A stretch of 60,584 nt of DNA from an uncultured Candidatus Saccharibacteria bacterium. Its GTDB lineage: Bacteria; Patescibacteriota; Doudnabacteria; UBA920. The notes below the pieces were generated by a model. It was not told where the DNA came from. It made no database searches and saw only the letters and a list, made by a program, of their open reading frames with translations. This document shows, in pieces, positions 23,497 through 60,578 of this stretch (position 1 is the first letter of the stretch; each line of letters opens with the position of its first letter). The translations under genes were made by a program, and so were the position numbers. The stretch lies in NCBI GenBank assembly GCA_964402965.1, contig CAYODY010000005.1, positions 1 to 60,584 on the forward strand, read 5' to 3'.

Positions 23497-23551
23497 GCTC
23501 AAGATCGTCAGTTCAAAAATCCATTTTCCAAAGAAATAAAAAAGCATTCCC

Positions 23552-23611
23552 TAACGAGACTATTGGAGCTCAGCATCACGCGAAGCGTGAGCGTAGCGAC
23601 CTAGTCGAGGT
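23552..23611 (-). repeat. Hairpin-nested module, copy 1 (reverse orientation, different apical hairpin)
   Basis: The reverse complement reads acctcgactaggtcgctacg-ctcacgcttcgcgtgatg-ctgagctccaatagtctcgtta. It is enclosed by outer stem 23539-23551 / 23612-23624. Confidence 0.85.
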
Positions 23612-23635
23612 GGGAATGCTTTTTATATTTCTTAT

Positions 23636-27023: not shown

Positions 27024-27132
27024 AAAATTTCACCTCACTTTAAAATGTGGCCTCAAGGACCTTAATCTCAGTAATTATACGTCATTTCCCCTCGGAGGTC
27101 AAATTGACGATCAACCCTCAAAACTAATTACC

Positions 27133-27191
27133 ACCTCGACTAGGTCGCTACGATTTGCTTTCAGCAAATCTGGGCTCCAATAGTCTCGTTA
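27133..27191 (+). repeat. Hairpin-nested module, copy 2
   Basis: acctcgactaggtcgctacg-atttgctttcagcaaat-ctgggctccaatagtctcgtta. It is enclosed by outer stem 27115-27132 / 27192-27208. Confidence 0.85.
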
Positions 27192-27212
27192 GGTAATTAG
27201 TTTTTGGGTTAT

Positions 27213-27542
27213 TTATTCAATTAGAAAATCCAGCTGTTCTTTAGGAATCCCTAATGATAAACCATAGTTAACAGCAGGGATCCATGAATCCTTATTATCA
27301 TATTCAAATTTGAAAATCTTATTCTTATAGACTGCTATAATACTATTTCCATTCCAAAAATGCATATACCAACTAACACCATTGATTTCTTGAGAGAGCT
27401 TATTAATATCTTCTTCTGATATTTCGACAGTATATAAATGCCAACCCAAATTTTCAGTTTTTCTAGAACTGATTATTTTGAAATCAGTTAATATTTTTGG
27501 GTTTACTAAACTCTCTAAGATAATAGTGCCAGTATATTCCAT
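27213..27542 (-). CDS. Hypothetical protein
   Basis: Start moved to MEYTGT. TGtTATAAT at 27549-27557 lies 6 nt upstream. The longer ORF would run into the 27554-27573 hairpin arm. Confidence 0.5.
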   Translation of the reverse strand: MEYTGTIILESLVNPKILTDFKIISSRKTENLGWHLYTVEISEEDINKLSQEINGVSWYMHFWNGNSIIAVYKNKIFKFEYDNKDSWIPAVNYGLSLGIPKEQLDFLIE

Positions 27543-32904: not shown

Positions 32905-32930
32905 ATAGAAATAAAATTAAAGGTGTTGTC

Positions 32931-32989
32931 ACCTCGATCAGGTCGCTACTATTTGCTTTCAGCAAATCTGGGCTCCAATGATCTCGTTA
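32931..32989 (+). repeat. Hairpin-nested module, copy 3
   Basis: acctcgatcaggtcgctact-atttgctttcagcaaat-ctgggctccaatgatctcgtta. It is enclosed by outer stem 32919-32930 / 32990-33001 between convergent genes. Confidence 0.85.
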
Positions 32990-33030
32990 GACAACACCTT
33001 TTTATTTTACAAATTTTACTCCAAAAGAAT

Positions 33031-35757: not shown

Positions 35758-36480
35758 ATGAATACAAACACATCCTATTTTGATTCCCTGGAATCAAAAA
35801 TATATTTCCTTCGTGGTCGGAGGGTAATGTTAGATAGCGACCTAGCTTTTTTGTATGGCGTGCCAACAAAAAGATTAAATGAGCAAGTCAGAAGAAACAC
35901 ACAGCGATTCCCCGAAGATTTTATGTTTCAACTCACACAAGAGGAGTTCGACCATATACGGTCGCAATTTGTTTCCGCATATGTGGATAACAATTCTTTA
36001 AGGTCACAAATTGTGACCTTAAACAGTGGACAACTATCTTCAAGGTCGCAAATTGCGACCTTGAACGATCAAGATGGCTTAAATGAGCCAAACTTGAAGT
36101 CACAATCTGTGACCTCAAGTGGGGATAACCTACCTTCAAGGTCACAAATTGTGACCTTGAACAAAAGCATGAGGTCGCAAATTGAGACCACATCAAAACG
36201 TGGACAAAATATTAAGTACCTTCCCTTCGCATTTACCGAGCAAGGGGTGGCAATGCTATCTTCTGTTTTAAAAAGCGAGCAAGCAATTCTAGTAAATATT
36301 CATATTATGCGGACATTCACAAAAACGCGTGGGATGTTGGCACAAAACCAACAACTCCGCGAACTCATAGAGAATCTGGAAATTAAATACGACGCCAATT
36401 TTAAAACCCTATTAGACGTCATTGAACTAATATTAACCCCGCAAGACATTGTAGAGAAAGGAAAAAATGAACGAATATAA
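35758..36480 (+). CDS. ORF6N/KilA-N-like DNA-binding protein with an internal RSQ(I/F)(V/A)T repeat expansion
   Basis: IYFLRGRRVMLDSDLAFLYGV.TKRLNEQV.RN..RFP.DFMFQL and YLPFAFTEQGVAMLSSVLKS. Confidence 0.75.
   Translation: MNTNTSYFDSLESKIYFLRGRRVMLDSDLAFLYGVPTKRLNEQVRRNTQRFPEDFMFQLTQEEFDHIRSQFVSAYVDNNSLRSQIVTLNSGQLSSRSQIATLNDQDGLNEPNLKSQSVTSSGDNLPSRSQIVTLNKSMRSQIETTSKRGQNIKYLPFAFTEQGVAMLSSVLKSEQAILVNIHIMRTFTKTRGMLAQNQQLRELIENLEIKYDANFKTLLDVIELILTPQDIVEKGKNERI
36000..36159. repeat. Perfect 21-23 nt palindromes inside the CDS
   Basis: 36000-36020 aaggtcacaaattgtgacctt; 36041-36063 caaggtcgcaaattgcgaccttg; 36137-36159 caaggtcacaaattgtgaccttg. Degenerate copies lie near 35959, 36099 and 36171. 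Confidence 0.9.
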
Positions 36481-39198: not shown

Positions 39199-41529
39199 AT
39201 GTCCAAACAACTTATTATAGTAGAGTCGCCTACAAAGGCGCGCACAATATCTAAATTCCTTGGTCCCGACTACGAAGTCGAGGCCAGTTTTGGTCACGTT
39301 CGTGATTTACCAAAATCTAAAATCTCTATAGATATAGAGCACGATTTTAAACCAGATTACGCCATCGCCCCAAAAGCTGTTGAGGTGATTTCAAAACTAA
39401 AAAAGATGGCAAAAAATGCTTCCTCTATAATACTTGCAACTGACGAAGACCGCGAAGGAGAAGCTATTTCGTGGCATCTAGTGGAAGCACTAGGAATGAA
39501 GTACAACGATCCTAAATTAAAGCGAATTGTTTTCCACGAAATTACCAAACCAGCAATTTTGCATGCTTTAGAAAATCCACGAGAAATTGACCTAAATTTG
39601 GTAGATGCTCAACAAGCTCGTCGTGTTTTAGATAGAATTGTCGGATACGAACTCTCCCCTTTCTTGTGGCGTAAAATCCGCTATGGTTTAAGTGCAGGTC
39701 GCGTGCAATCCGTTGCGATACGTTTAGTAGTGGAACGTGAGCGTGAAATTCAAGCTTTCAAAGCCGAAGAGTATTGGAGCATTGAAGCAAATCTTTCTAA
39801 GTTAAACGATGAACTTAAATTCATTGCTAAACTTTCTAAAATTGATGACAAAGCTGTTGGTAAAATGGGGATTTCTTCAAGCGATCAAGCGAAGAAAATT
39901 ACTACAGACTTAGAAGGTGCTGAATACAAAGTCATAGACATAACTAAAAAAGAAGTTAAACGAAATCCATCCGCACCATTTACCACCTCTACTCTACAAC
40001 AAGAAGCGGCACGCAAACTTGGTTTTAGCGCCAAGCAAACTATGGCTGTTGCTCAAGGACTTTACGAAAAAGGTCACATTACTTACATGCGTACAGATAG
40101 CTTAAATTTAGCAGCATCTGCCTTGGCGCAAGCACAGGAAGTTATTACAGCGGAATTTGGAAAACAGTACGGTTTAAGCGAACCTCGTCACTACGCGAAT
40201 AAGAGTAAGGGTGCGCAAGAAGCTCACGAAGCCATTCGCCCAACAGACCTTTCTCTATTACCACAAAACATGCGTTCTAAAGCAGATGCAAAAGCTTTAC
40301 GTTTGTACGATCTAATTTGGAAGAGAACAATTGCTAGCCAGATGCAACAAGCTATTTTTGATCAAACTGGTGTAGATATTTCCGCTAGCGCTAAAAACAA
40401 TGCAACTTCCAAATATACTTTTAGAGCAAACGGACAAGTTGTGAAATTTGATGGATTTATTCGTGCATACACAGAAGGTACAGATGAAACTAACGAAGAC
40501 GAAATTGAAGGCGCATTACCAGATCTATCTGTTCAAGAGAATCTAAAATTAAATGAGCTTTCTCCCCTACAACATTTCACTGAACCCCCTGCTCGATATA
40601 CTGATGCATCGCTAATTAAAGCTTTGGAAACTGCTGGAGTAGGACGACCTTCAACCTATGCCCCAACACTAACAACTGTTCAAGAGCGTGGGTATGTTAC
40701 CAAAGAAGACAAAAAGTATGCACCAACCGAAGAAGGTTACATGGTAACAGACATGCTTGTTGCCAACTTTCCGGAAATCGTAGATATAAACTTTACATCC
40801 CATATTGAAAAACAATTCGACGAAATTGCTGAAGGCAAATTAAAATGGGTTCCAGTGATGGAAGAATTTTATGGTCCATTCAAAAAGAATTTAGACGAAA
40901 AAGAAAAAACAGTTGAGAAAACGATTGAAGTTTCCACTACCCCTTGCCCTCATTGTTCAAAATTGATGTTAATAAAATATGGCCGCATGGGGAAATTCTT
41001 AGCTTGTCCAGAAGAAGGAAGCAAAGTTACTTTACCGATGCCAGAAGAAGCTGCACAAATTAAAGCTCTTGAAGAAAAAACCAAAGATGAGCTCTGTCCT
41101 ATCTGCGGTAAGCACATGGAAGTTAAGCGCGGACGTTTTGGTTTCTTCCTTGGCTGCGTGGACTATCCAAAATGCAAAGGAATAGCAAAAATTTGGAATA
41201 AAACTGGATTTAAATGTCCTATGTGTTTAGAGTCTACAGACCGTGCTGACAAACCTGGTGATGTGGTTGAGAAAAAAGGACGTGGTCGAGGTAAACCATT
41301 CTGGGCATGCACCCGTTGGCCAGATTGTACAATGATCATCAACGCTAAGCCTGAATCCGAAGCGCAACTTGCTAAGCTATACGCAGAAGCGAAAGAAAAA
41401 GCCGCTAATCCTAAACCAAAAAGTAAAGCTAAAGTAAAGAGTAAGGCTGCTAACAAAAAGACCAAAGCTAAAAGCAAAGAAACCACAGAAACTCCAGATG
41501 AAGAAAATGTAAATTCAGCCCTTGAATAA
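39199..41529 (+). CDS. topA: DNA topoisomerase I with C-terminal zinc ribbons and a Lys-rich tail
   Basis: TOPRIM region LIIVESPTKA...DEDREGE, active-site region ITYMRTDS, and three C4 zinc ribbons. Confidence 0.95.
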   Translation: MSKQLIIVESPTKARTISKFLGPDYEVEASFGHVRDLPKSKISIDIEHDFKPDYAIAPKAVEVISKLKKMAKNASSIILATDEDREGEAISWHLVEALGMKYNDPKLKRIVFHEITKPAILHALENPREIDLNLVDAQQARRVLDRIVGYELSPFLWRKIRYGLSAGRVQSVAIRLVVEREREIQAFKAEEYWSIEANLSKLNDELKFIAKLSKIDDKAVGKMGISSSDQAKKITTDLEGAEYKVIDITKKEVKRNPSAPFTTSTLQQEAARKLGFSAKQTMAVAQGLYEKGHITYMRTDSLNLAASALAQAQEVITAEFGKQYGLSEPRHYANKSKGAQEAHEAIRPTDLSLLPQNMRSKADAKALRLYDLIWKRTIASQMQQAIFDQTGVDISASAKNNATSKYTFRANGQVVKFDGFIRAYTEGTDETNEDEIEGALPDLSVQENLKLNELSPLQHFTEPPARYTDASLIKALETAGVGRPSTYAPTLTTVQERGYVTKEDKKYAPTEEGYMVTDMLVANFPEIVDINFTSHIEKQFDEIAEGKLKWVPVMEEFYGPFKKNLDEKEKTVEKTIEVSTTPCPHCSKLMLIKYGRMGKFLACPEEGSKVTLPMPEEAAQIKALEEKTKDELCPICGKHMEVKRGRFGFFLGCVDYPKCKGIAKIWNKTGFKCPMCLESTDRADKPGDVVEKKGRGRGKPFWACTRWPDCTMIINAKPESEAQLAKLYAEAKEKAANPKPKSKAKVKSKAANKKTKAKSKETTETPDEENVNSALE

Positions 41530-41543
41530 ATCCTCTAAATAAG

Positions 41544-43259
41544 CTAAAATTGTTGAGTATTTACTGGTTCCTCACTGCTAAGGGAACCATGCTCAACTTT
41601 GGGTCTGTAGCTCAGTTGGTAGAGCAGTGGCCTTTTAAGCCATTTGTCGCGGGTTCGAATCCCGCCGGACCCACCAAATGAGTCTTGCTCGAATATAGGA
41701 TTGCCTTTAGTTTTATTACGGCATAAGTAATCCAACGGTTCTTGCAAGACAGCACGGACAATTTGTCCATCACGCATATACAATTCTTTGAATAACGTTC
41801 GAGCCAAGAGAGCCTTCATTTGAGGCTCTTTTGCGTTTTGGTAGGCATACGCGCAACTAACCGTTAGTGATAGTGCAATCTCAACAGTACGGACGACTCC
41901 CGCAATTTTACTTTCAACTTTACCGAGTTCATCAGTTAACTTTGTATCTTCCATTCCTAATTCAGCCATAACCGTATGGTACAAATCCATATCTCCAGAG
42001 GTGTTATTTTCTTTATCAACTAACTGAAGAACTAAGTTTTTCTTCTGCCGTTTAATGTTCGCTACTTTCCCTAGTATATCCTTACGGGCTTTTTCATAGA
42101 TAACATGTTCATCAGAAAACAATCCCCTGACTTTTGCTTGAAGCTTTTCAGTAGTAGATACAGGCAGGTTGATAGTTTGAAGAAGTTTCTCAAACTGATT
42201 TTCATACTCAGACTCATGATGGTACTTCTGACTACAAGGTACTTTCCTTTTCTTGATAGCCTTTAGACAACGAAGATACCGATAGATGTTCTTTTTACGA
42301 GTTACCTGCTCATCACTAGTCATTTTACTACTGCACTCATCGCAGTATGAGATGCCTTTAAGGATAGAAAACAAACGCCACTTCCGACTTGAACTACTAG
42401 AGCGTGATGAGCATACCGCTTGGGCTTTATCGAATAACGCACGATCTAAAAATAGTTCGTGGTTACCATTTTCATTTACAACTCCGTCCCATATAATATG
42501 CCCAATATAGAATTTGTCTTGGAGAATGCGAGCCAAATAGCTAGCTTGCAAAACACTGCGAGTCTGACCTTTAAATAAACGAAGTGGAAACCCTTCATCA
42601 ATAAGCTGTTCAGCTAAATCACGAGTTGACCAGTTGCCAGTAGCATACAGTTCATATGCCCTAGTGACCCATTTAGCCTCTGTCCAGTCTACTTCTATCC
42701 ACGCCTTAACTTTACCAGTAGACGCTTTCTCCTGAACATTTTTATATCCATAAGGGGCTGTCCTTGGCCAACCCCCAGCTTTCGCTTTCTGTATTAGATT
42801 GTTCTTAACTCGGCGACCATGTTGAGCAGAATAGAATTCTGCTAGTGAAGATAGGATTCCTTCCAACATTTGACCCTCAGGGCTGTCATCAATACCTTCT
42901 GTGGCGGAAATTAATTTAACATTGTGTTTACGCAATGCGACTTTAATAAGTGAGAGGTCATCACGATTGCGAGCTAGGCGGCTTAGGTCGTAAACAGTGA
43001 TTGCCTGAACAGACTTATCTTTTTCACAACGATTTAGCATATCCAGCAGTGCTGCACGATCCATTGTGCGAGCACTCAGTCCTGCATCTGTGTAAATGTC
43101 TGTCTCAAGGTTAAATGTGTAGCCATTTTGCTCTGCGTATTCTGTACATTTAGCTTGCTGTGTTGGGAGAGCAATGCCTTTTTCGGCTTGCTGGTCGGTT
43201 GATACCCGTAGATAAATGAGGGTAATACCTTTTGATTGATTTATTGATTGTTCGTTCAT
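41544..43259 (-). CDS. Large serine recombinase; the last ~44 codons are read-through across the tRNA-Lys antisense
   Basis: Resolvase N-domain ITLIYLRVSTDQQ...YDLSRLARN, a recombinase domain, and zinc ribbon CDEC...YLRC. The C-terminal FGGSGGIRTRDKWLKRPLLYQLSYRP is the reverse complement of the tRNA. Confidence 0.85.
   Translation of the reverse strand: MNEQSINQSKGITLIYLRVSTDQQAEKGIALPTQQAKCTEYAEQNGYTFNLETDIYTDAGLSARTMDRAALLDMLNRCEKDKSVQAITVYDLSRLARNRDDLSLIKVALRKHNVKLISATEGIDDSPEGQMLEGILSSLAEFYSAQHGRRVKNNLIQKAKAGGWPRTAPYGYKNVQEKASTGKVKAWIEVDWTEAKWVTRAYELYATGNWSTRDLAEQLIDEGFPLRLFKGQTRSVLQASYLARILQDKFYIGHIIWDGVVNENGNHELFLDRALFDKAQAVCSSRSSSSSRKWRLFSILKGISYCDECSSKMTSDEQVTRKKNIYRYLRCLKAIKKRKVPCSQKYHHESEYENQFEKLLQTINLPVSTTEKLQAKVRGLFSDEHVIYEKARKDILGKVANIKRQKKNLVLQLVDKENNTSGDMDLYHTVMAELGMEDTKLTDELGKVESKIAGVVRTVEIALSLTVSCAYAYQNAKEPQMKALLARTLFKELYMRDGQIVRAVLQEPLDYLCRNKTKGNPIFEQDSFGGSGGIRTRDKWLKRPLLYQLSYRPKVEHGSLSSEEPVNTQQF
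41601..41676 (+). tRNA. tRNA-Lys(UUU), CCA encoded
   Basis: Canonical cloverleaf. Acceptor gggtctg/cggaccc, D arm gctc-agttggta-gagc, anticodon arm gtggc-cttttaa-gccat, T arm gcggg-ttcgaat-cccgc. Confidence 0.93.
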
Positions 43260-43417
43260 AATAGTTACTGTTAATTATTTGGATAATAAAACCCTGCCTA
43301 GGACTCGGTGTCGCAGCCGAGGTGCTGTAAACTTTGCCTAGGTAGGGCTTTGGGATTCTATGTCGCAGATAATTGTTACTTTAATTATATCATACGACCT
43401 GCCTCTACCAGAGTCTG

Positions 43418-43448
43418 GTCTTTGCTGACAATGCTGTCTTGCTGTCAA
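43418..43448 (+). repeat. Island junction motif, copy E
   Basis: gtctttgctgaca-atgctgtcttgctgtcaa is related to the minus-strand reading of copies A, B and D. Confidence 0.55.
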
Positions 43449-44998
43449 AAAGGAACTTCACTTACGCTTATATCCTCATTTTCATTACTTAAAGGTTCAA
43501 CGCTCGGCGTGACAGCAAGGGTAGTAATTTGAATGTTGCGCAAACCATCTCCCCGATCACGGGTTACTAAGATTCCTCGCTCTCGCAGATTAGGAATGAC
43601 TTCTTCGAGTTTTCGCCATAGCCAGTTTGCTTGCTTAGGCAAAACTTTTTGTTTGTCCAACCCTATTCCGTCCGCTACATCTTTTAGTTCAGTCAAAAGT
43701 GCAGTTGGAGTTCCCTGCCACTCAGCATGAATTTTCATAAACTGCATTATCATAAAGGCTACGCTAGAAGTTTCAATTACTTCATCATGTTGTAGTTGAC
43801 GGTTAGCTTTGAGAGCAGAAATGAAAGTACCTTTACCAATCCCCAGCACCTCACTCGCTCCTGCACCAAACTGTGCAAAGCCTGCCATGCGATACTGCTC
43901 TAAACCTTCAACTTTAGGATTATCTTTTCGGTACTTCATAGTTTGAGATATTACTGTAAACAATGCACCGAGCAAACGAGGGCGAGCCTCTTCAAATCGC
44001 GCGAACAATTTTTGCTCATCTTCGTAGTTTTCAGGAGGTTGTAAATTAACTATCAAAGCACGGTCTAATATATCTGGTTTATCTATCGGTAAGTTAATGC
44101 CATTCATACCAAGCACTCGCTGAAAGGAATAAATAACGTCGTCGTCATTGGTAAATAACTCTCGCTTGCTAAAACCTTCTCCAGTTACTACACGACATAG
44201 TAAGTCAGAGAAATCAGATTTGATAGGACTCAAATTATCCAATGGCAGAAAGTAATTATGACTGGCTTGTTGAATGAACTCATTTAAATCTCGCTGTGGA
44301 CCGACAGTTTCAAGCATTGAAGGGTCAAGTAAACGCCGCAATAACTTGAACAGTGTTGTCTTTCGTGAACCTTTTTCGCCTTTAACGACAAGTATAGGGT
44401 GTGGGAATCCCTGTATCAGGGCAGTTGCAAGCCATATCAGCAACAGCAATCGCTCTTTCGAATCACTTGGTTCTGGAATGAAGTCAAAAACTTCCTCCAA
44501 CTCTCCGCCCTCTATAGGAATAACCTGTGCCTTTTGATGTGCAAACCGATAGAATAAGATTGGGGGCTTTTCTACTACTTGCCAGCCATTCTCTGTAATT
44601 TTGGCTGCCTTGCCATCACCCAAGTCATACCACAGCTCATTGCCAATTGTAGATGCTCTGACATGTAACTCAATTTGCTTGCCTTCATGCAAGGCGTGTC
44701 CTTCCAAAGTTCGTACCGCAGTTTCTATAATTGCAGAATTAATTGGCTTGCCTAATGACTTCCACCCTAAATGCGATAGCCACGACTTAAACTCACGATT
44801 ACGCAACCGCAAGATTTTGCCGCCATTTCCGTCCATTGCAATGTACGCTGAACCAAACTGGTCGTGGAACAAAACTGACTCGCCTTTCAGTACCTTATTG
44901 ATAAGAACAGTTGTTTGACCTTTATCTTCCTCGTTTAAGATTTCGCTTTGAGCTGTATCTTTCACAGCAATGTTATCTCCGATGAGAGCTTCTTCCAT
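43445..44998 (-). CDS. P-loop NTPase, D5/VirE/P4-type replication helicase-like
   Basis: 517 aa. Walker A-like VVKGEKGSRKTT in the central region. The family call is tentative. Confidence 0.45.
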   Translation of the reverse strand: MEEALIGDNIAVKDTAQSEILNEEDKGQTTVLINKVLKGESVLFHDQFGSAYIAMDGNGGKILRLRNREFKSWLSHLGWKSLGKPINSAIIETAVRTLEGHALHEGKQIELHVRASTIGNELWYDLGDGKAAKITENGWQVVEKPPILFYRFAHQKAQVIPIEGGELEEVFDFIPEPSDSKERLLLLIWLATALIQGFPHPILVVKGEKGSRKTTLFKLLRRLLDPSMLETVGPQRDLNEFIQQASHNYFLPLDNLSPIKSDFSDLLCRVVTGEGFSKRELFTNDDDVIYSFQRVLGMNGINLPIDKPDILDRALIVNLQPPENYEDEQKLFARFEEARPRLLGALFTVISQTMKYRKDNPKVEGLEQYRMAGFAQFGAGASEVLGIGKGTFISALKANRQLQHDEVIETSSVAFMIMQFMKIHAEWQGTPTALLTELKDVADGIGLDKQKVLPKQANWLWRKLEEVIPNLRERGILVTRDRGDGLRNIQITTLAVTPSVEPLSNENEDISVSEVPF

Positions 44999-45150
44999 TA
45001 TTGTTTCCTTTCTTTGTTAGCAAGTTGTTCCCCAGCGTGAAGCTGTCGAGCAATAGTCGCTAACGCCAATGCCAAACAATCCACAAGCCGATTTTCTTGG
45101 GCTTGCATATCCATATCATTTATTTCAATTGCTTTAAGGGCGTCTGACAT
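44998..45150 (-). CDS. 50-aa ORF translationally coupled to the P-loop gene (TAATG overlap)
   Basis: Hand translation gives MSDALKAIEINDMDMQAQENRLVDCLALALATIARQLHAGEQLANKERKQ*. Its stop overlaps the downstream ATG by 1 nt. Confidence 0.4.
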   Translation of the reverse strand: MSDALKAIEINDMDMQAQENRLVDCLALALATIARQLHAGEQLANKERKQ

Positions 45151-45233
45151 TGATTAAATTTAATAAAAAAGACCATAGCGTTTTGCTATAGCCTTAATAT
45201 ATTCTTTTAGTAGTCATTCCAACACGGAACGGA

Positions 45234-45280
45234 TGTGAAAGATTGTGATTAATTGTGATACGAATGTGACATGAATGTGA
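45234..45280. repeat. Five phased TGTGA iterons
   Basis: TGTGA cores start at 45234, 45244, 45254, 45265 and 45276, giving spacings of 10, 10, 11 and 11 bp. Confidence 0.85.
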
Positions 45281-45281
45281 T

Positions 45282-45980
45282 TTAGGTAATCAGCTTATAA
45301 CCATGATTTTTAATGTTCTGTATGAAATCCTGATGTTTCGCTTTATGGGCTGGCAGAATTTCTAGAGCTTCTTTGATATTTCTAATATCAAAAGTTAAGT
45401 TTCTGATACTATCTTTAGTAGGATTAGCACCCAATAAATCTTCATAAGTCGCTTGATAATTCTTGCTATCTGCCAATTTCAAAATTACTTCAAACTGTTT
45501 GGATGTAGGGTTGAATTGAGTGGGTATCTCATTGATATGTACAATGCCTGTTAATCGATTAATTTTTAACTCCCCCTCTTTGAGAGCAACTACAACGATA
45601 TCTTCATCATGTTCAGGCTCATTTTCTGTTTTTCGGTTTGGAGATGAAGGATTCAATCCCCCAGTGTGGGCCAAAAATTTCTTCTTATCTAAAAGGCATT
45701 TTGCAACTTTGTAAGTAACGCGAGTTGCCGCATATTCACCAAGTGGAATATCTTCAAATCTTTCGTCAATTACATAATCTTCTACAACTCCTTCTTCTTT
45801 GAGTTGTTCAAGAGCATCTACTCTTAAACCATAAGAGACGCTCTCATCATCAAACTCTTCAACATCATCATCTCCTAAATACACTTCATAACGTATTTTA
45901 TTGCCTTCAGGGTGCTGATCATACTGTTGGCGTAACTCTATTAAAATTTCCTGTAAGTAGTCAAAAGTTGTTTTAGGCAT
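45282..45980 (-). CDS. Protein with a C-terminal OmpR/PhoB-type winged-helix DNA-binding domain
   Basis: The C-terminus ...FEVILKLA....ATYEDLL.......SIRNLTFDIRNIK.....FIQNIKNHGYKLIT fits the trans_reg_C pattern. TAGAAT lies 6 nt before the ATG. Confidence 0.55.
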   Translation of the reverse strand: MPKTTFDYLQEILIELRQQYDQHPEGNKIRYEVYLGDDDVEEFDDESVSYGLRVDALEQLKEEGVVEDYVIDERFEDIPLGEYAATRVTYKVAKCLLDKKKFLAHTGGLNPSSPNRKTENEPEHDEDIVVVALKEGELKINRLTGIVHINEIPTQFNPTSKQFEVILKLADSKNYQATYEDLLGANPTKDSIRNLTFDIRNIKEALEILPAHKAKHQDFIQNIKNHGYKLIT

Positions 45981-46108
45981 ACTTATATTCTACCGCATTT
46001 AAGCCAGTTTTCATAACTCATTACTTATCAAGTTCAGAGTGAGGAAAATTGAACAATTCTATACTTACGACCAGAGAGAAAGGGTCTAAATCAGAGTATG
46101 CCGAAATC

Positions 46109-46744
46109 CTACGACATCTTAACCTTTGCTTGGGATAACTTTTCATAAGTCTGTTCAGCTGCCTCAGAGCCTAACCATTTCTGTTTAGCAACTATCCATC
46201 GTAAAAATGGTTTAGCGACCTTGTTGCCATAAACTCTACGCTTGGAATGTTTGAGCATGTTACTGACCTTCATAGCTCTGTTCATACGATATGCCATCTC
46301 TGCCAGCACCCCACCTCTACGATTGATAGTCTGCAACTCATAACTGAGTTCCAAACACTTTCGACACGAGAAGTAATTAGGCTTGCGGTCAGGGCGAAGA
46401 TACAGCTTACTGCGTAAACTACCGCACATAACGCAAAAGAAGAATGGTTTATTTCCAAAATGAGTCTCGCAGGTCAAGATAGTAATAACTTGGGTCTGTG
46501 CGATTCCTTTATATGGGTAAATGACTTGAACCTTGAACGGATCACTCTTAATTACCTTGTAGCCTATGAGCAGAGTATCGTACTGGCTAGATATATATGC
46601 TTTACCTGATTTAGACTCTCCCTCTTTGTTAGGGTGGAGAAGATTACGGCTTAGAGAACCAATAGATAATGAATAGCACTCTTCCACAGTCATTTTGGGA
46701 TACAGTTTTTGTTGTTTAGGTTGATCGAAGAATTCTTGTTCCAT
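46109..46744 (-). CDS. Zinc-ribbon protein, function unknown
   Basis: CVMCGS...(17)...CRKC. TAAAAT lies 6 nt before the ATG. Confidence 0.5.
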   Translation of the reverse strand: MEQEFFDQPKQQKLYPKMTVEECYSLSIGSLSRNLLHPNKEGESKSGKAYISSQYDTLLIGYKVIKSDPFKVQVIYPYKGIAQTQVITILTCETHFGNKPFFFCVMCGSLRSKLYLRPDRKPNYFSCRKCLELSYELQTINRRGGVLAEMAYRMNRAMKVSNMLKHSKRRVYGNKVAKPFLRWIVAKQKWLGSEAAEQTYEKLSQAKVKMS

Positions 46745-46762: not shown

Positions 46763-46792
46763 GTCAGCAGGACAGTATAGACGGCATAATTT
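46763..46792 (-). repeat. Island junction motif, copy D
   Basis: The minus strand reads aaattATGccgtctatactgtcctgctgac, a mini-ORF MPSILSC* ending 20 nt before the 46744 start. Confidence 0.55.
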
Positions 46793-46983
46793 GAACATCT
46801 TATGCAGAGGTTTCCCTACACAGGACTCCTGAGGATATAGAAAGGATTGTTTACCAACCACTCCCCACCCACCCCCTTCATACTCTCTGTGTTCCTAATA
46901 CAATTCCTCTTTAATGAATTGCAATTCAAACCGCCACCCACCTGTGAGTGGCTTGTTAATCATTAAACGAAAGGGTTACTCAA

Positions 46984-47199
46984 ATGAGCAAGAACCTAGC
47001 AGTACTAGCTGAGTTCGATAACCACGACTGTAAAAGTTCAGCTGACTCAGGATGCAATACCTGTGTCTTCTTCTCTCGAAGCAAAGTCCGTTGGAATCGT
47101 TTCTTAGAGAAGATGGACTTGGTTAGAAAGAATAGCAAGCACATTGACTCTCAGCTAATCAACCACATCATGCAACCAACACAGGAGGAAAGCCAATGA
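46984..47199 (+). CDS. Small hypothetical protein
   Basis: 71-aa ORF. It overlaps the next gene by ATGA. Confidence 0.4.
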   Translation: MSKNLAVLAEFDNHDCKSSADSGCNTCVFFSRSKVRWNRFLEKMDLVRKNSKHIDSQLINHIMQPTQEESQ

Positions 47200-47501
47200 T
47201 TGAATTAAAAGAGATACTAGCAATCCCTAGTTCATACAGGGGTTCAGAAAAGTCTGCTGCGAAAGTCAAAGAACAGATAGCACTTAGATGGCCTAAGCTA
47301 GCAAAGGACTATGACCCTAGATTCACTACCCGCACCGCAAGGGCATGGCAAGTGATAGGTTACAGAATCAAGAAAGGTGAGAAAGCCATTAAGAGCATTA
47401 CAGTAATTGAGAAGACCGATAGCAAGGGCAAAGTCATTGAAAGCTATCCTAAGGTTATTTCGCTCTTTCACATAAATCAGATCGAAAAGATGAAGATATA
47501 G
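47196..47501 (+). CDS. Small ArdC-N-like (ssDNA-binding, anti-restriction-type) protein
   Basis: TTRTARAWQVIGYRIKKGEKAIKSI resembles the ArdC N-domain core (...G..V.KGEKg). The call is tentative. Confidence 0.35.
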   Translation: MIELKEILAIPSSYRGSEKSAAKVKEQIALRWPKLAKDYDPRFTTRTARAWQVIGYRIKKGEKAIKSITVIEKTDSKGKVIESYPKVISLFHINQIEKMKI

Positions 47502-47614: not shown

Positions 47615-47971
47615 ATGGAAACAACTCAACCCCGTGTCCAGTTAAACGCATCACTTAGGTACAGCCCTACTGGAGAGCTGATTAGCCGAGACTTGCTGAT
47701 TAACTTCAGAGAGGAAAGTGTGGACGAGTGCGTTAAGTTACTCGGAGACTTTAACAGGCAGTTCAACATCAATCTAGGTTTGGCAGAGCAACCACAAATT
47801 GCCTCACAAACCACGATACTGCCTGCGGACGCTCCAAGCGATTGTCCAAGATGCTTAGTTCCTCTAATCAAAAGAAAAGTTAGTAACAGGGAAAGTGCTA
47901 GTTATGGAAAAGAGTTCTTAGGCTGTGGCAACTATGCTCGCAAGGGCTGTCTTTTCAGTCATTGGCTGTAA
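47615..47971 (+). CDS. Protein with a topoisomerase-type C4 zinc finger
   Basis: CPRCLVPLIKRKV......GKEFLGCGNYARKGC has the same architecture as the TopA C-terminal ribbons in this window. Confidence 0.5.
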   Translation: METTQPRVQLNASLRYSPTGELISRDLLINFREESVDECVKLLGDFNRQFNINLGLAEQPQIASQTTILPADAPSDCPRCLVPLIKRKVSNRESASYGKEFLGCGNYARKGCLFSHWL

Positions 47972-53701: not shown

Positions 53702-53748
53702 TCTGTCCTGACAAATTACTTAATTTACAATTACACTGCAACTAATTA

Positions 53749-54345
53749 TTATGCTTTGGCTATTACATGAAAAAGATGCCAATGCTTTACTACCCCACTC
53801 GCTAGTTTGCGGTCTATTTCTTCTTCTTCAAATTCCAAAACTTCCATATTACTAAACAAGTCTTCCACTTCAGATTTAGTATGAAAAGTGAACTCTCTTT
53901 CTTGCTCATTCCATTGGTCACGAACACCAAAGAACTGCCCTACAAAAACCCCTTCAGTCGCCAATGACTGCTCTATGCCATTCCACACTTTCTCAAAAGT
54001 TTTAGGAGAGTTAAATGGAAGTGCGTAATGCGCATTAACCAAGTCATATTCCTTTACGGGAAATACGAACTCGTCGAATGGTGATTGAATAAATTCAAAA
54101 TTATTTTTTGGTAACTGTTCCAATAAGGCCTGCGGAGGTAGTTCTTTGTCGATAGCGATTACTTTACTAAAGCCTTGTGATAGTAAAAACTGAGCGTCCA
54201 CTAAGTCACCAGTACCCAAGTCCACAGCTATACCTTTGTTTTGTAAAAAAGAAGTTGCTTTAACCAAAAATGAGGCAACGGGTCGATTTTTTCTATCCGT
54301 GTAATGTTCTTGCCAATCTATATTCATATGTTGTAATGATATCAT
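53749..54345 (-). CDS. SAM-dependent methyltransferase (TehB-like)
   Basis: Motif I-like AVDLGTGDLVDAQFL, 198 aa. Confidence 0.55.
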   Translation of the reverse strand: MISLQHMNIDWQEHYTDRKNRPVASFLVKATSFLQNKGIAVDLGTGDLVDAQFLLSQGFSKVIAIDKELPPQALLEQLPKNNFEFIQSPFDEFVFPVKEYDLVNAHYALPFNSPKTFEKVWNGIEQSLATEGVFVGQFFGVRDQWNEQEREFTFHTKSEVEDLFSNMEVLEFEEEEIDRKLASGVVKHWHLFHVIAKA

Positions 54346-54371
54346 TTTTCTTGCAGAGCAAAAACTGGTGA
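54343..54371 (-). repeat. Island junction motif, copy C (5' UTR plus start codon)
   Basis: The plus strand catttttcttgcagagcaaaaactggtga matches 57468-57496 at 27 of 29 positions. The 'cat' is the start codon of the 53749-54345 gene. Confidence 0.75.
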
Positions 54372-56760: not shown

Positions 56761-57261
56761 TCACTCTTGCATGAATAAATACTTTCTTAAGTCACGCCTC
56801 GGCTGGTCACCTGAATCGTAAATGCACGAATCAAGGAGCTGGACTCCGTCTCTTTCGAAACAGAATGCCGTCAGAACGTGAGCATTACCGCCGTCGGTCT
56901 TAGGGCAGACCGCATCGATTGCGAAGATGTAATCCCCAGGCGGAACAGTTGGTGCATCCAGCATGAACTGAATCGGAGTATCGGACGGGCATTTTGATAA
57001 GCCCAGCTCAATACCTTTGTTCAGCACTTGGTTATGACTAGCGTTTGCTGGTAGACCGAAGTCTTTGACTGGATCAACAGCAACCAAATTCGCTGTCATG
57101 CCTTGCTTGCTGTCTGGAAAAGCAAAGCCGATCTCGAAGAGAGTGTGAAGGATTTTGTTGTCCTTCTGAAACCGACCCAGCGATTCTCTGACCTTTGCTT
57201 CTGTGGTCAAGTCAACACCGAAAGTCAACGTGCATATAATCGAAAAAGATAAAGTATTCAC
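56761..57261 (-). CDS. Orphan protein, compositionally atypical (GTG start, AGGAGG Shine-Dalgarno)
   Basis: 166-aa ORF. GTG at 57259-57261 with AGGAGG at 57268-57273. Confidence 0.55.
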   Translation of the reverse strand: MNTLSFSIICTLTFGVDLTTEAKVRESLGRFQKDNKILHTLFEIGFAFPDSKQGMTANLVAVDPVKDFGLPANASHNQVLNKGIELGLSKCPSDTPIQFMLDAPTVPPGDYIFAIDAVCPKTDGGNAHVLTAFCFERDGVQLLDSCIYDSGDQPRRDLRKYLFMQE

Positions 57262-57442
57262 TATAATCCTCCTGAGATTAATAACTTCTGTTGCCTGCTG
57301 TAAGTAAAAACTTAGTCTTACAAGTCAGGTGGCTAGTTATTTATTTTGGATATATTATAGCATAATACTAGAATTATGTCAAGTTTAATGAATAAACCCC
57401 ATATTTGGTAATGATTTGTAATCATAGGTTTTCCTACATATG

Positions 57443-57496
57443 CTGACAGCAAAGACGGTATAGGCAGCATTTTTCTGGCAGAGCAAAAACTGGTAA
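57443..57496 (-). repeat. Island junction motif, copy A (composite of the B-like and C-like halves)
   Basis: 57443-57475 matches 60357-60389 at 28 of 33 positions. 57468-57496 matches 54343-54371. Confidence 0.8.
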
Positions 57497-59581: not shown

Positions 59582-60217
59582 TTAAATTTTTTCGAGTTCC
59601 AAACTTTCGGAAACTCTGAATTTTCCAACAACCTTATAATCAACGTTGCAGCCTTCGGAAACGGTGATTGTTAAATCTCCGTTTTCTGCCTTCGGCTTGA
59701 TACCACGCTCCAGATCGTTGCCGAAATATTTTACGACCATCGAATCGATATCGATACTCTCGCCCGTTATCGGGCTGAAAAACATGTACGTATCACTACA
59801 TCTGAAAGCGATAGCATACTTGCCACAGTACACATCTGATTCATAGCCAGGAAGTCCTTGGAATCGAACAAGTTTTCCATCGGGAGTATATACATCAACC
59901 CGATTTTTTTCCGAATATCGAAGCATGAAATATCCTTCCTGCGGTTCCTTGTCGTTATAATTGATCACTCGCTCCCATATAATGGGACTGCAGGTATTCG
60001 ACTCAGGTTTTCCCTTTTCAAGTGTTATGGGAAGCATTGTTTGCTTGTCGATGACAACTTGTCCTGACAGGCCAGCCCCATAAGTAAAGCTCTTAAAGAA
60101 AGAGCCAAAGAACACGCAACCTAGGTCAACGATGGTAAGGTCTTTGTTGGTTAAAACAAAAGACAACGACTCGGCAATACTAATTGCCCCGATTTTCGTT
60201 TGCGCAGCTTTTTTCAC
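59582..60217 (-). CDS. Orphan protein (GTG start, AAGGAG Shine-Dalgarno)
   Basis: 211-aa ORF. GTG at 60215-60217 with AAGGAG at 60226-60231. Confidence 0.55.
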   Translation of the reverse strand: MKKAAQTKIGAISIAESLSFVLTNKDLTIVDLGCVFFGSFFKSFTYGAGLSGQVVIDKQTMLPITLEKGKPESNTCSPIIWERVINYNDKEPQEGYFMLRYSEKNRVDVYTPDGKLVRFQGLPGYESDVYCGKYAIAFRCSDTYMFFSPITGESIDIDSMVVKYFGNDLERGIKPKAENGDLTITVSEGCNVDYKVVGKFRVSESLELEKI

Positions 60218-60356
60218 GATTTTTTCTCCTTATACTTTGAATTTAACCTATGATAATGGCACTAGATTAATTGCACACATTATAGAATAAAACTGATATT
60301 TTGTCAACATTGTAAAACCAGCTAATCTTTAGGGCTTTATATTAGGGTGGGGTACT

Positions 60357-60389
60357 CTGACAGCAATGACACCATAGACAGCATTTTTC
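60357..60389 (-). repeat. Island junction motif, copy B
   Basis: The minus strand reads gaaaaATGctgtctatggtgtcattgctgtcag, a mini-ORF MLSMVSLLSEYPTLI*. Confidence 0.75.
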
Positions 60390-60532: not shown

Positions 60533-60578
60533 ACCAAAGAGCAGTAATGTCACGAAAGTGATGTTACTGCTCTTTGGT
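60533..60578 (+). other. 21-bp hairpin with a GAAA tetraloop at the window edge
   Basis: accaaagagcagtaatgtcac-gaaa-gtgatgttactgctctttggt, with two G-U pairs. Confidence 0.75.

What the first reader, a model, noticed from the sequence alone, without database searches (positions are those of the whole stretch)
57443..57496. A roughly 30-nt junction or mini-ORF motif recurs five times in the element, upstream of unrelated cargo genes
On the minus strand, copy A reads GAAAAATGCTGCCTATACCGTCTTTGCTGTCAG (57443-57475). Copy B (60357-60389) is 28/33 identical. A diverged copy D lies at 46763-46792. Copy E is a plus-strand tandem partial copy at 43418-43448. Each of A, B and D contains an ATG opening a similar short peptide: MLPIPSLLSAY..., MLSMVSLLSEYPTLI* and MPSILSC*. 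They lie upstream of three unrelated minus-strand genes, 56761-57261, 59582-60217 and 46109-46744. The adjacent half of A (57468-57496) matches 54343-54371 at 27/29 positions, where the same ATG is the real start codon of the methyltransferase 53749-54345. A conserved leader-plus-start segment is therefore joined to different downstream sequences. There are three possible explanations. It may be a shared regulatory leader or upstream ORF. It may be debris from repeated recombination at a preferred site. Most interestingly, it may be a cassette-junction sequence through which cargo genes are swapped, by analogy with integron attC/attI sites. No specific recombinase is linked to it except the serine recombinase at the element end.
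Basis: seen in the sequence. Interest (0 to 1): 0.7.

Follow-up and report, generated by a model that had tools for sequence, protein, structure and literature searches.

The report
Iteron-like repeat arrays of a mobile island
The recurring ~30-nt motif is neither a mini-gene nor an integron-like cassette junction: it is three tandem 9-bp repeats (wwTGCTGTC), most likely binding sites (iterons) for the replication helicase of a tRNA-Lys-integrated mobile island in a Patescibacteria-like genome, much as in staphylococcal SaPI and SCCmec elements.

Summary
A, B, D and E are each a triple tandem array of 8-9-nt units, consensus wwTGCTGTC. A position matrix built only from arrays in other contigs ranks these four as the top four sites in the window (28.6-37.2 bits; shuffle maximum 15.7). 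All four lie in the island right of tRNA-Lys.

Arrays keep their positions in diverged relatives:
- E sits at the stop codon of a 517-aa gene, upstream of the serine-recombinase promoter.
- D sits just upstream of the operon that leads to that gene.

The 517-aa protein models as a SaPI Rep / SCCmec Cch-type self-loading helicase. Those helicases bind short direct repeats directly downstream of their own genes. More distant relatives carry different short repeats at the same place.

The fifth "copy", M, has no array. It is a 27-nt copy of the segment flanking A, and it abuts a real breakpoint where a methyltransferase gene lost its NUDIX partner. Its ATG is probably not the start codon.

Not supported: the mini-ORF, an attC-like hairpin, and a general cassette junction (other gene-content breakpoints have no motif).

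Verdict: a new member of a known kind, iteron/operator arrays. What A and B do in the cargo region is unresolved.

The parts
57445..57469 (-). Array A: three tandem 9-nt units, AATGCTGCC TATACCGTC TTTGCTGTC. It lies in the divergent intergenic region between the 166-aa gene (-) and the 77-aa gene (+).
   Evidence: 28.6 bits with a matrix built from other loci
57468..57496 (-). Segment X, flanking array A: ACCAGTTTTTGCTCTGCCAGAAAAATG. On the + strand it contains CTGGCAGAG. This resembles the -35 region (TTGGCAGAAG / CTGGTAGAGG) that follows E-type arrays upstream of the recombinase gene.
54343..54371 (-). M: an array-less copy of segment X (26/27). It abuts the methyltransferase module and marks a recombination breakpoint.
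60359..60383 (-). Array B: AATGCTGTC TATGGTGTC ATTGCTGTC. It lies 49 nt upstream of a 12/12 consensus promoter.
   Evidence: 32.0 bits
46763..46786 (-). Array D: TATGCCGTC TATACTGTC CTGCTGAC. It ends 19 nt upstream of the ATG of the 211-aa zinc-ribbon gene, the first gene of the run leading to the helicase. It is conserved 23/25 in L013 and identical in L028.
   Evidence: 32.9 bits
43423..43446 (+). Array E: TTTGCTGAC AATGCTGTC TTGCTGTC. It overlaps the helicase stop codon and reads opposite to the helicase gene. It ends 33 nt upstream of the -10 box of the recombinase promoter. Proposed origin iterons.
   Evidence: 37.2 bits
43511..43517 (-). Single inverted TGCTGTC unit, 62-64 nt from array E, inside the last codons of the helicase gene. 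Conserved in L011; L026 has a degenerate equivalent.
43445..44998 (-). 517-aa P-loop NTPase: a self-loading SF3/D5-like helicase of the primase-helicase family, with a winged-helix-like C-terminal domain. Candidate array-binding protein.
41544..43259 (-). Large serine recombinase. The 3' end of its ORF runs through the tRNA-Lys gene on the opposite strand. Left end of the island.
41601..41676 (+). tRNA-Lys(UUU), the integration site of the island.
46109..46744 (-). 211-aa zinc-ribbon protein (the D gene), a core gene downstream of array D. Its homologue in L013 is preceded by two inverted arrays.
57354..57382 (-). TTGACA-17-TATAAT promoter (with TG extension) of the 166-aa gene module. Homology to L004/L005 begins here or about 30-55 nt upstream, and excludes the array.
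60279..60307 (-). TTGACA-17-TATAAT promoter of the 211-aa gene downstream of B.
53749..54327 (-). Methyltransferase gene, with its probable true start at 54327. It was captured without its NUDIX partner; nucleotide homology to orthologues covers 53744-54346 only.

Best explanation
The window carries an integrative island at tRNA-Lys in a Patescibacteria-like genome. The host assignment is only an inference from distant methyltransferase homologues.

The island's conserved core is a large serine recombinase, a self-loading SF3/D5-type helicase, a 211-aa zinc-ribbon protein and small ArdC-N-like and zinc-finger proteins. The 'motif' is this island family's cognate repeat array: three head-to-tail 8-9-bp units, wwTGCTGTC, with T3, G7 and C9 invariant in 30 units.

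Proposed mechanism (inferred, not shown):
- The helicase binds the units through its C-terminal winged-helix domain, as SaPI Rep and SCCmec Cch2 do.
- Array E, at the helicase stop codon and between the helicase and recombinase genes, is the origin. It probably also influences the adjacent recombinase promoter.
- Array D, in inverted orientation at the head of the gene run leading to the helicase, acts as an autoregulatory or pairing site.
- Arrays A and B are extra copies in the cargo region. They are either still bound, coupling strong cargo promoters or DNA pairing to the initiator, or they are relics of E-type 'array plus -35' regions from earlier rearrangements.
- M is such a relic: the array was lost when a methyltransferase gene was joined at the array edge.
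For: 1. The arrays are real and confined to the island.

2. Their positions are conserved while the surrounding DNA is not.
- The D array is 23/25 identical in L013 upstream of the orthologous gene. The helicase there is 60% identical in protein, and no other nucleotide similarity is found in that intergenic region. L013 also has a second, inverted array flanking a TATAAT.
- E-type arrays occur at the helicase stop codon in L026/L027 (helicase 55%) and in the last codons of the helicase in L018-L025 (50%), in the same orientation.
- L018 also has a triple array in the intergenic region upstream of the long gene run that ends at the helicase.

3. The helicase is the only protein matched by tblastn in all four array-bearing lineages. 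The recombinase gave no hit in L026/L027, and the one in L018 is only 23% identical.

4. The AF2 model (pLDDT 84.7) matches the SaPI5 primase-helicase 7ola (TMt 0.57), SCCmec Cch 5dgk, PriRep1 7pds and D5/E5. Its C-terminal topology is beta-helix-helix-helix-beta-beta.

5. Published precedent. SaPI Rep binds iterons directly downstream of rep through a C-terminal winged-helix domain. Cch2 binds three direct repeats in the cch2-ccrC intergenic region (PMC7581432, PMC9371898).

6. In 13 loci of this helicase family, 5 have a triple repeat of period 8-12 nt within 70 nt of the helicase stop, against 3.5% of control windows (P about 5e-5). The units are lineage-specific: CGTGACG in L032, GTGAGCGT in L033. 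Clusters lie in both orientations around the stop in L033 and L036, and a second cluster lies upstream of the helicase in L032.
Against: - No binding or replication data exist; the binding protein is inferred only.
- The arrays are also promoter-proximal, so a separate transcription factor would explain D, A and B equally well.
- L013 lacks a clear TGCTGTC array after its helicase. It has a different 16-nt repeat and a degenerate GACACCG/GACAATC pair there instead.
- The stretch between E and its inverted unit is coding sequence, not a classical AT-rich spacer.
- SaPI and SCC elements are not known to scatter iterons among cargo genes.
- A and B have no orthologous sequences available, so their conservation is untested.
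- The window and L011 are one lineage, which weakens the 5/13 count to 4/12. By my estimate, not recomputed, that is still P about 5e-4.
Confidence: 0.6

Rival explanations
1. The arrays are operators for a dedicated island transcription factor rather than for the helicase. Candidates are the 211-aa zinc-ribbon protein, the 232-aa protein with a weak OmpR/PhoB-type winged-helix match, and the XRE-type 110-aa protein. That factor would co-regulate the replication operon, the recombinase and some cargo promoters.
For: - D overlaps the core promoter region of the 211-aa gene.
- In L013 two inverted arrays flank a TATAAT immediately before the orthologous start codon.
- E ends 33-40 nt upstream of the -10 box of the recombinase promoter.
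- A and B lie 49-62 nt upstream of the only two 12/12 consensus promoters in 17.5 kb.
- The unit CTGTC resembles the PhoB half-site, and the 232-aa protein has a weak Trans_reg_C match (E 0.11).
Against: - L028 replaces the 232-aa gene with an unrelated 243-aa gene but keeps array D unchanged.
- No homologue of the 211-aa protein was detected in the L018 locus, which still has arrays.
- The 9-bp period does not fit OmpR-type 10-11-bp phasing.
- Repeats at the helicase 3' end recur across the family with lineage-specific sequences. That is the signature of an initiator's own origin.
Confidence: 0.22
2. A, B and M are non-functional debris. They would be left-over copies of an E-type 'array plus recombinase-promoter' region from earlier rearrangements or element accretion. 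On this reading, the motif marks old recombination joints rather than a working site.
For: - M is an array-less 27-nt copy that ends within 3 nt of a proven breakpoint.
- Read on the + strand, A has the array followed by CTGGCAGAG at E-like spacing, but no -10 box.
- Homology of the 166-aa gene module to L004/L005 ends about 0-30 nt from the edge of array A, and those homologues have no array.
- The close relative L028 has different cargo and no extra arrays.
Against: - All nine invariant positions of A and B are intact despite five substitutions between them. This is a weak argument, since chance gives P about 0.2.
- D and E are clearly under constraint, so the motif as a class is functional.
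- No helicase or recombinase gene remnants flank A or B.
Confidence: 0.12
3. The motif is an integron-like or other site-specific cassette junction through which cargo genes are exchanged.
For: Two module boundaries (the methyltransferase and the 166-aa gene) lie at or near motif edges.
Against: - The arrays are direct repeats with no dyad symmetry and no hairpin (z > 0).
- No tyrosine recombinase was found among the island ORFs scanned.
- The arrays do not track the serine recombinase.
- Breakpoints at 45167, 46016 and 47981 have no motif.
- The flanking genes have their own promoters and mixed orientation.
- No related copy of the motif turned up in 185,579 species-representative genomes or in IMG/VR; the three genome matches were in unrelated organisms and looked like chance.
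Confidence: 0.03
4. The motif encodes a conserved leader peptide or upstream ORF (MLPIPSLLSAY...).
For: A, B and D each contain an ATG in the first unit.
Against: - None has a Shine-Dalgarno sequence.
- The ORF lengths are 45, 15 and 7 codons, and the peptides are unrelated beyond the motif.
- Substitutions between A and B are not enriched at synonymous positions in any frame.
- E-type arrays begin TTTGCTG, with no ATG.
- In L013 the ATG runs in frame into the downstream gene.
Confidence: 0.02

Closest known systems
SCCmec 'pattern 2' replication module (Cch2 helicase, three AAGTG direct repeats in the cch2-ccrC intergenic region)
   Same: - Both are integrative elements with a large serine recombinase and a D5/SF3-type self-loading helicase.
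- Both have three short direct repeats in the intergenic region between the helicase gene and the recombinase gene.
- The helicase has a C-terminal dsDNA-binding domain (PMC7581432; fold match to Cch 5dgk).
   Different: - The host phylum is different.
- No sequence-level similarity: phmmer against the PDB found only two marginal P-loop matches at E 0.2.
- The unit is 7 nt within a 9-bp period, against a 5-nt unit.
- Further arrays lie at the operon head and in cargo.
- Binding has not been tested.
SaPI/PICI origins (iterons immediately 3' of rep, bound by the winged-helix C-terminal domain of Rep)
   Same: - Short repeats lie directly downstream of the helicase gene.
- An oppositely oriented unit lies about 60 nt away.
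- The repeat sequences are lineage-specific.
- The best structural match is to the SaPI5 primase-helicase 7ola.
   Different: - SaPIs use tyrosine integrases.
- SaPIs have 6-12 iterons flanking a non-coding AT-rich region.
- Here there are three units plus one inverted unit, and the intervening stretch is coding sequence.
Phage P4 ori/crr and iteron-plasmid control loci (own knowledge: the P4 alpha primase-helicase binds TGTTCACC octamers at ori and at crr 4.5 kb away; plasmid Rep proteins autoregulate through repeats in their promoters)
   Same: Several separated clusters of one short repeat, bound by the element's own initiator, including promoter-proximal clusters.
   Different: This is recalled from the literature and was not tested here. 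There is no evidence that A or B is needed for replication.
Integron attC/attI cassette sites
   Same: Only superficial: a short recurring sequence next to unrelated genes.
   Different: No hairpin, no IntI, no promoterless unidirectional cassettes, and breakpoints that are not systematically at the motif.

Membership tests
Iteron-type origin of a self-loading SF3/D5-like helicase (SaPI Rep / SCCmec Cch type) | The element encodes a helicase of this fold | tested here: met
   AF2 model with pLDDT 84.7. Foldseek hits 7ola, 5dgk, 7pds and D5/E5 at E 1e-9 to 1e-6. Longer homologues carry Prim-Pol, PriCT or Toprim domains.
Iteron-type origin of a self-loading SF3/D5-like helicase (SaPI Rep / SCCmec Cch type) | Short direct repeats immediately downstream of the helicase gene | tested here: met
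   Array E overlaps the stop codon. The same holds in L011, L012, L026 and L027; in L018 the array lies in the last codons.
Iteron-type origin of a self-loading SF3/D5-like helicase (SaPI Rep / SCCmec Cch type) | The position is conserved across the family while the repeat sequence is lineage-specific | tested here: met
   5 of 13 loci against 3.5% of control windows, P about 5e-5. Units are CGTGACG in L032 and GTGAGCGT in L033.
Iteron-type origin of a self-loading SF3/D5-like helicase (SaPI Rep / SCCmec Cch type) | Oppositely oriented iterons flank an AT-rich region that can melt | tested here: inconclusive
   One inverted unit lies 62-64 nt from E, but the spacer is helicase coding sequence. 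L013's D-type arrays flank a 34-nt AT-rich stretch.
Iteron-type origin of a self-loading SF3/D5-like helicase (SaPI Rep / SCCmec Cch type) | A C-terminal winged-helix domain binds the repeats, and the region supports replication | not testable with these tools
   Only the predicted beta-helix-helix-helix-beta-beta topology at residues about 426-493 is available.
Integron attC/attI cassette site | An imperfect palindrome that folds as a hairpin in single-stranded form | tested here: not met
   Fold z-scores are +0.4 to +1.2 for A, B and D on both strands. The arrays are direct repeats.
Integron attC/attI cassette site | An adjacent IntI tyrosine recombinase and promoterless, co-oriented cassettes | tested here: not met
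   Only a serine recombinase was found among the island ORFs scanned. The genes have consensus promoters and mixed orientation.
Large serine recombinase att site | A site of about 40-50 bp with dyad symmetry at the element boundary, co-varying with the recombinase | tested here: not met
   The arrays are internal direct repeats. They persist in L018, whose recombinase is only 23% identical.
Upstream ORF / leader peptide | A conserved translatable ORF with a ribosome-binding site and constraint at the amino-acid level | tested here: not met
OmpR/PhoB-type direct-repeat operator | A cognate winged-helix regulator is encoded alongside, and half-sites are phased at 10-11 bp | tested here: not met
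   The period is 8-9 bp. The only candidate (the 232-aa protein, Trans_reg_C E 0.11) is absent from L028, which keeps array D.

The most novel reading that the evidence does not exclude
The island's replication initiator doubles as a global regulator of the element. Iteron arrays placed upstream of strong cargo promoters (A, B), at the head of its own operon (D) and next to the recombinase promoter (E) would tie cargo expression, excision and replication to one protein. Alternatively, the arrays would act as multiple pairing or origin sites. Either way, array edges would be preferred joints for acquiring new cargo. This would be a previously undescribed organising principle for mobile islands in Patescibacteria/CPR bacteria.
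Probability: 0.2. Interest if true: 0.6.

Novelty: new member of a known kind. Interest (0 to 1): 0.38.

Why it matters
Mobile elements of Patescibacteria/CPR bacteria are almost uncharacterised. This analysis defines a family of tRNA-integrated islands built on a serine recombinase plus a self-loading helicase, together with their cognate repeat, wwTGCTGTC x3. The layout matches SCCmec and SaPI replication modules from a distant phylum. It gives concrete, testable sites: an origin candidate and operator candidates. It also gives a protein domain to test. The recurring motif upstream of unrelated genes turns out to be initiator or regulator binding sites rather than a new cassette-exchange system.

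Tried and rejected
- Exact-protein look-ups of four window proteins found nothing. The window is itself the whole contig.
- A scan of genome contigs for the A/B pattern gave three matches in unrelated organisms. The one inspected (L001) shares nothing with A or B beyond the pattern, so I treat all three as chance. IMG/VR gave none.
- An IMG/VR scan for segment X gave none.
- A looser array pattern in IMG/VR hit only unrelated 9-nt tandem repeats. Two look like coding repeats. One phage contig has three perfect TATGCTGTC units abutting a promoter.
- The metagenome scan for the D array found one true relative (L028) and one chance hit in a contig of 61% GC.
- Pfam, PHROGs and NCBIfam scans of the island proteins left most of them without a family.
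- I considered coding-remnant readings of the motif on both strands. One is a plus-strand '...DSKDGIGSIFLAEQKLV' tail; the other is a minus-strand '...KNAAYTVFAV'. I rejected both: no frame shows synonymous bias and no full-length paralogue exists.
- Rfam gave no credible match at gathering score or at E <= 1, and there is no RNA structure.
- I considered an att-like 'X-O-Z / X-O-Y / W-O-Z' hybrid-site model with core GAAAAATG. I dropped it because the order and orientation of the copies do not fit integration products. GAAAAA is simply the A/T-rich lead-in of the first unit.

Full report
**What is in the sequence.**
Copy A reads as quoted at 57443-57475 on the minus strand. Copy B (60357-60389) is 28/33 identical to it. 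The neighbouring 27 nt of A (57468-57494) match 54343-54369 ('M') at 26/27, with blastn-short E 2e-7.

By plain identity the proposed copies D and E are not significant. They score 20-21 of 33, and Markov shuffles of the window give about 15 and 4 such hits.

**The unit of repetition.**
The motif is really three head-to-tail units of 8-9 nt:
- A: AATGCTGCC TATACCGTC TTTGCTGTC
- B: AATGCTGTC TATGGTGTC ATTGCTGTC
- D: TATGCCGTC TATACTGTC CTGCTGAC
- E (plus strand): TTTGCTGAC AATGCTGTC TTGCTGTC

A whole-window scan for three such units at 8-10-nt spacing returns exactly these four sites, and none in 200 shuffles. That scan's unit pattern was derived from these same arrays.

I therefore repeated the test with a position matrix built only from arrays found later in other contigs (L013, L026, L018). 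It ranks E, D, B and A as the four best triples in the window, at 37.2, 32.9, 32.0 and 28.6 bits. The maximum in 20 shuffles is 15.7.

Across 30 units from the window and its relatives, T3, G7 and C9 are invariant. All four arrays lie in the last third of the window. M has no array.

**Genomic setting.**
- The window is a complete 60,584-bp contig.
- GC content is about 38%.
- Its methyltransferase has distant homologues annotated as Parcubacteria/Patescibacteria. The host assignment rests only on that.
- tRNA-Lys(UUU) lies at 41601-41676.
- A large serine recombinase gene (41544-43259, minus strand; Resolvase, Recombinase and Zn_ribbon_recom domains) runs its 3' end through the tRNA gene.

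So an island begins at the tRNA and extends past the contig end.

A related contig, L011 (GCA_020049755.1), carries the same island at tRNA-Lys next to topA. Its island DNA is 87.6% identical to the window's, but the flanking chromosome is only 66-82% identical (mostly 72-75%).

Comparison with L011/L012, L028 and L013 defines a conserved core:
- the recombinase
- a 517-aa NTPase
- a 50-aa ORF
- a variable slot
- a 211-aa zinc-ribbon protein
- divergent 71-, 101- and 118-aa genes

Everything beyond 47981 is variable cargo.

**The arrays are conserved cis elements of this island family.**
- *L013* (helicase 60% identical in protein). The orthologue of the 211-aa gene is preceded by TATGCTGTCCATACTGTCCTGCTGTC, which is 23/25 identical to array D. 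That intergenic region is otherwise unalignable. A second, inverted array (AATGCTGTCCTTGCTGTCTTACTGTC) lies directly before the start codon, and the two flank a TATAAT.
- *L028.* Array D is identical.
- *L026/L027* (helicase 55%). The array GACAGTAAGACAGCAAGGACAGCA starts at the helicase stop codon and is followed by the recombinase promoter, TTGGCA-16-TGTGATATAAT. Place and orientation match array E in the window and in L011/L012.
- *L018-L025* (helicase 50%). Two good units plus a degenerate third lie in the last codons of the helicase gene. A further triple (TACTGAC/TACTGTC/TGTTGAC) lies in the intergenic region upstream of the 10-kb gene run that ends at the helicase.

In the window, D and E are in inverted orientation and bracket the run from the 211-aa gene to the helicase.

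**Which protein goes with the arrays.**
The helicase is the only protein matched by tblastn in all four array-bearing lineages. The recombinase gave no hit in L026/L027, and the one in L018 is only 23% identical. The 232-aa protein is replaced by an unrelated gene in L028 although array D is unchanged.

The 517-aa protein has no Pfam hit. Its longer homologues carry Prim-Pol, PriCT, Toprim or DUF3854 N-terminal domains.

An AlphaFold2 model (pLDDT 84.7) matches these structures at Foldseek E 1e-9 to 1e-6:
- the SaPI5 primase-helicase 7ola (TMt 0.57)
- SCCmec Cch 5dgk
- SaPI PriRep1 7pds
- ASFV PrimPol
- NrS-1
- poxvirus D5/E5

The model ends in a beta-helix-helix-helix-beta-beta winged-helix-like module at residues about 426-493.

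The literature gives a direct precedent. SaPI Rep helicases recognise iterons immediately downstream of rep through a C-terminal winged-helix domain. SCCmec Cch2 binds three direct repeats in the intergenic region between cch2 and the serine recombinase gene ccrC (PMC7581432 and PMC9371898). That is the arrangement of array E.

**Family-wide test.**
I examined 13 loci with homologues of this helicase, including eight IMG/VR contigs at 28-35% identity.
- Five have a triple repeat of period 8-12 nt within 70 nt of the helicase stop codon, against 3.5% of 2,322 control windows. The binomial P is about 5e-5.
- Counting the window and L011 as one lineage gives 4 of 12. By my estimate, not recomputed, that is about 5e-4.
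- The units differ by lineage: CGTGACG in L032, GTGAGCGT in L033, GCGTCAC in L036.
- In L033 and L036 the units form oppositely oriented clusters around the stop codon.
- In L032 a second cluster lies upstream of the helicase gene.

A conserved position with a co-evolving sequence is what iterons bound by the element's own initiator look like.

**The A-M match and the junction idea.**
Read in the GACAGCA orientation, the arrays are followed after 7-21 nt by a second shared element, yTKGCAGAGG. In the E-type context this is the -35 region of the recombinase promoter. Segment X of copy A (CTGGCAGAGC) is such an element, and M is a second copy of X without the array.

M does sit at a real joint. 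In four related contigs the methyltransferase directly follows a NUDIX gene. Nucleotide homology with the window covers only 53744-54346, so it stops within 3 nt of the end of X.

The motif ATG at 54345 is probably not the start codon. The window's own database gene call is 192 aa and close homologues are 193-194 aa, which fits the ATG at 54327. In the orthologues the upstream codons are stops.

The 166-aa gene downstream of A has two homologues (90% and 70% identical). They share the promoter, a strongly conserved 5' UTR and the gene, but have terminators instead of the array upstream.

Some module boundaries therefore lie at or near motif edges, but others do not. L028 differs from the window at 45167, 46016 and 47981, and none of these has a motif. 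L028's cargo has no arrays.

**Rejected readings.**
- *Mini-ORF.* There is no ribosome-binding site. The lengths are 45, 15 and 7 codons. No frame shows synonymous bias. E-type arrays lack the ATG.
- *attC-like site.* There is no hairpin, with fold z-scores of +0.4 to +1.2. No tyrosine recombinase was found among the island ORFs scanned. The flanking genes have consensus promoters and mixed orientation.
- *Serine-recombinase att site.* The arrays are internal direct repeats and do not co-vary with the recombinase.
- *Known RNA family.* Rfam gave no credible match.
- *Widespread motif.* Scans of 185,579 species-representative genomes and of IMG/VR gave only matches that look like chance.

**Best explanation and what remains open.**
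*Shown:* four real arrays, conserved in position across diverged islands and associated with a SaPI/SCC-type helicase gene.

*Inferred:* the helicase binds them; E is the origin and also lies next to the recombinase promoter; D is an autoregulatory or pairing site.

*Unresolved:* whether a separate transcription factor reads the arrays (rival, about 0.2). Also unresolved is whether A and B are working sites upstream of the only two perfect consensus promoters in the cargo or relics of earlier E-type regions.

**Verdict.**
The cassette-junction and uORF interpretations are not supported, and the shared-cis-element reading is broadly right. This is a new member of a known kind (initiator iteron/operator arrays) in a poorly studied lineage.

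Noticed in passing
window 41544-41676: The serine recombinase ORF reads through the tRNA-Lys gene on the opposite strand (its C-terminus reads ...GGIRTRDKWLKRPLLYQLSYRP...). The integrated state therefore supplies the recombinase's C-terminal tail and stop codon. L011 has the same arrangement.
   Followed up: partly
window 43262-43345 (minus strand); L013 11725-11790; L026 2470-2540: A conserved stem lies just upstream of the recombinase start codon: CCCTGCCAGG...CCTGGCAGGG followed by TTTTATTATCCAA. It occurs in three diverged lineages, with apparent compensatory changes. It looks like a terminator or attenuator, or a structured leader.
   Followed up: partly
window 57262-57335 (minus strand); L004 250-324; L005 410-484: The 5' UTR of the 166-aa gene is more conserved (87-93% nucleotide identity) than the protein (70-90%). 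It contains a hairpin, CCTGACTTGTAAG...CTTACAGCAGG. It may be a cis-regulatory RNA.
   Followed up: no
window 57422-57440 and 46806-46825 (minus strand); L004 about 190-215; L005 307-336; L018 1324-1353: A second short element recurs near arrays and promoters: TGTAGGRAAACCT / CATAGTGGAAGAYGTGGCAACT. L005 and L018 share an isolated 30-nt stretch at 29/30 in otherwise unrelated DNA.
   Followed up: partly
window 35956-36164: Near-perfect palindromes, AAGGTCACAAATTGTGACCTT, are repeated 3-4 times. They lie inside an ORF (35758-36480) and encode repeated 'RSQIVTL' peptides of what looks like an ORF6N-like protein. I made that identification by eye and did not check it with a family search. DnaA-box-like TGTGGATAA motifs lie between them.
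   Followed up: partly
window 27132-27228, 32930-33026, inverted copy 23534-23624: An element of about 95 nt is present in three copies in the chromosomal part (77-88% identical). Its nature is unknown.
   Followed up: no
window 60534-60577: A perfect 20-bp-stem hairpin followed by TTTGTT lies at the very end of the contig, just past array B. It gave a weak Rfam match to a 3'-UTR stem (E 0.009, below gathering score). It may explain why the assembly ends here.
   Followed up: no
window 43260-43400: The region between array E and the recombinase start contains further direct repeats: TGCCTAGG x2, TGTCGCAG x2 and GTTACTnTTAATTAT x2.
   Followed up: no
L015 9478-9504 (IMG/VR contig, 51% GC): An unrelated viral contig has three perfect TATGCTGTC units directly abutting a TTGACG-17-TATATT promoter. 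The architecture is similar but it is probably independent.
   Followed up: no
window 41519-46061 compared with L011: The island core is 87.6% identical between two genomes whose flanking chromosomal DNA is only 66-82% identical (mostly 72-75%). This is consistent with recent horizontal movement of the island.
   Followed up: partly
window 47196-47501 and 47615-47971: By eye, the 101-aa core protein resembles an ArdC N-terminal ssDNA-binding domain (W..G..IKKGEK...LFHINQ). The 118-aa protein ends in a topoisomerase-type C4 zinc ribbon. Neither reaches a Pfam threshold.
   Followed up: no
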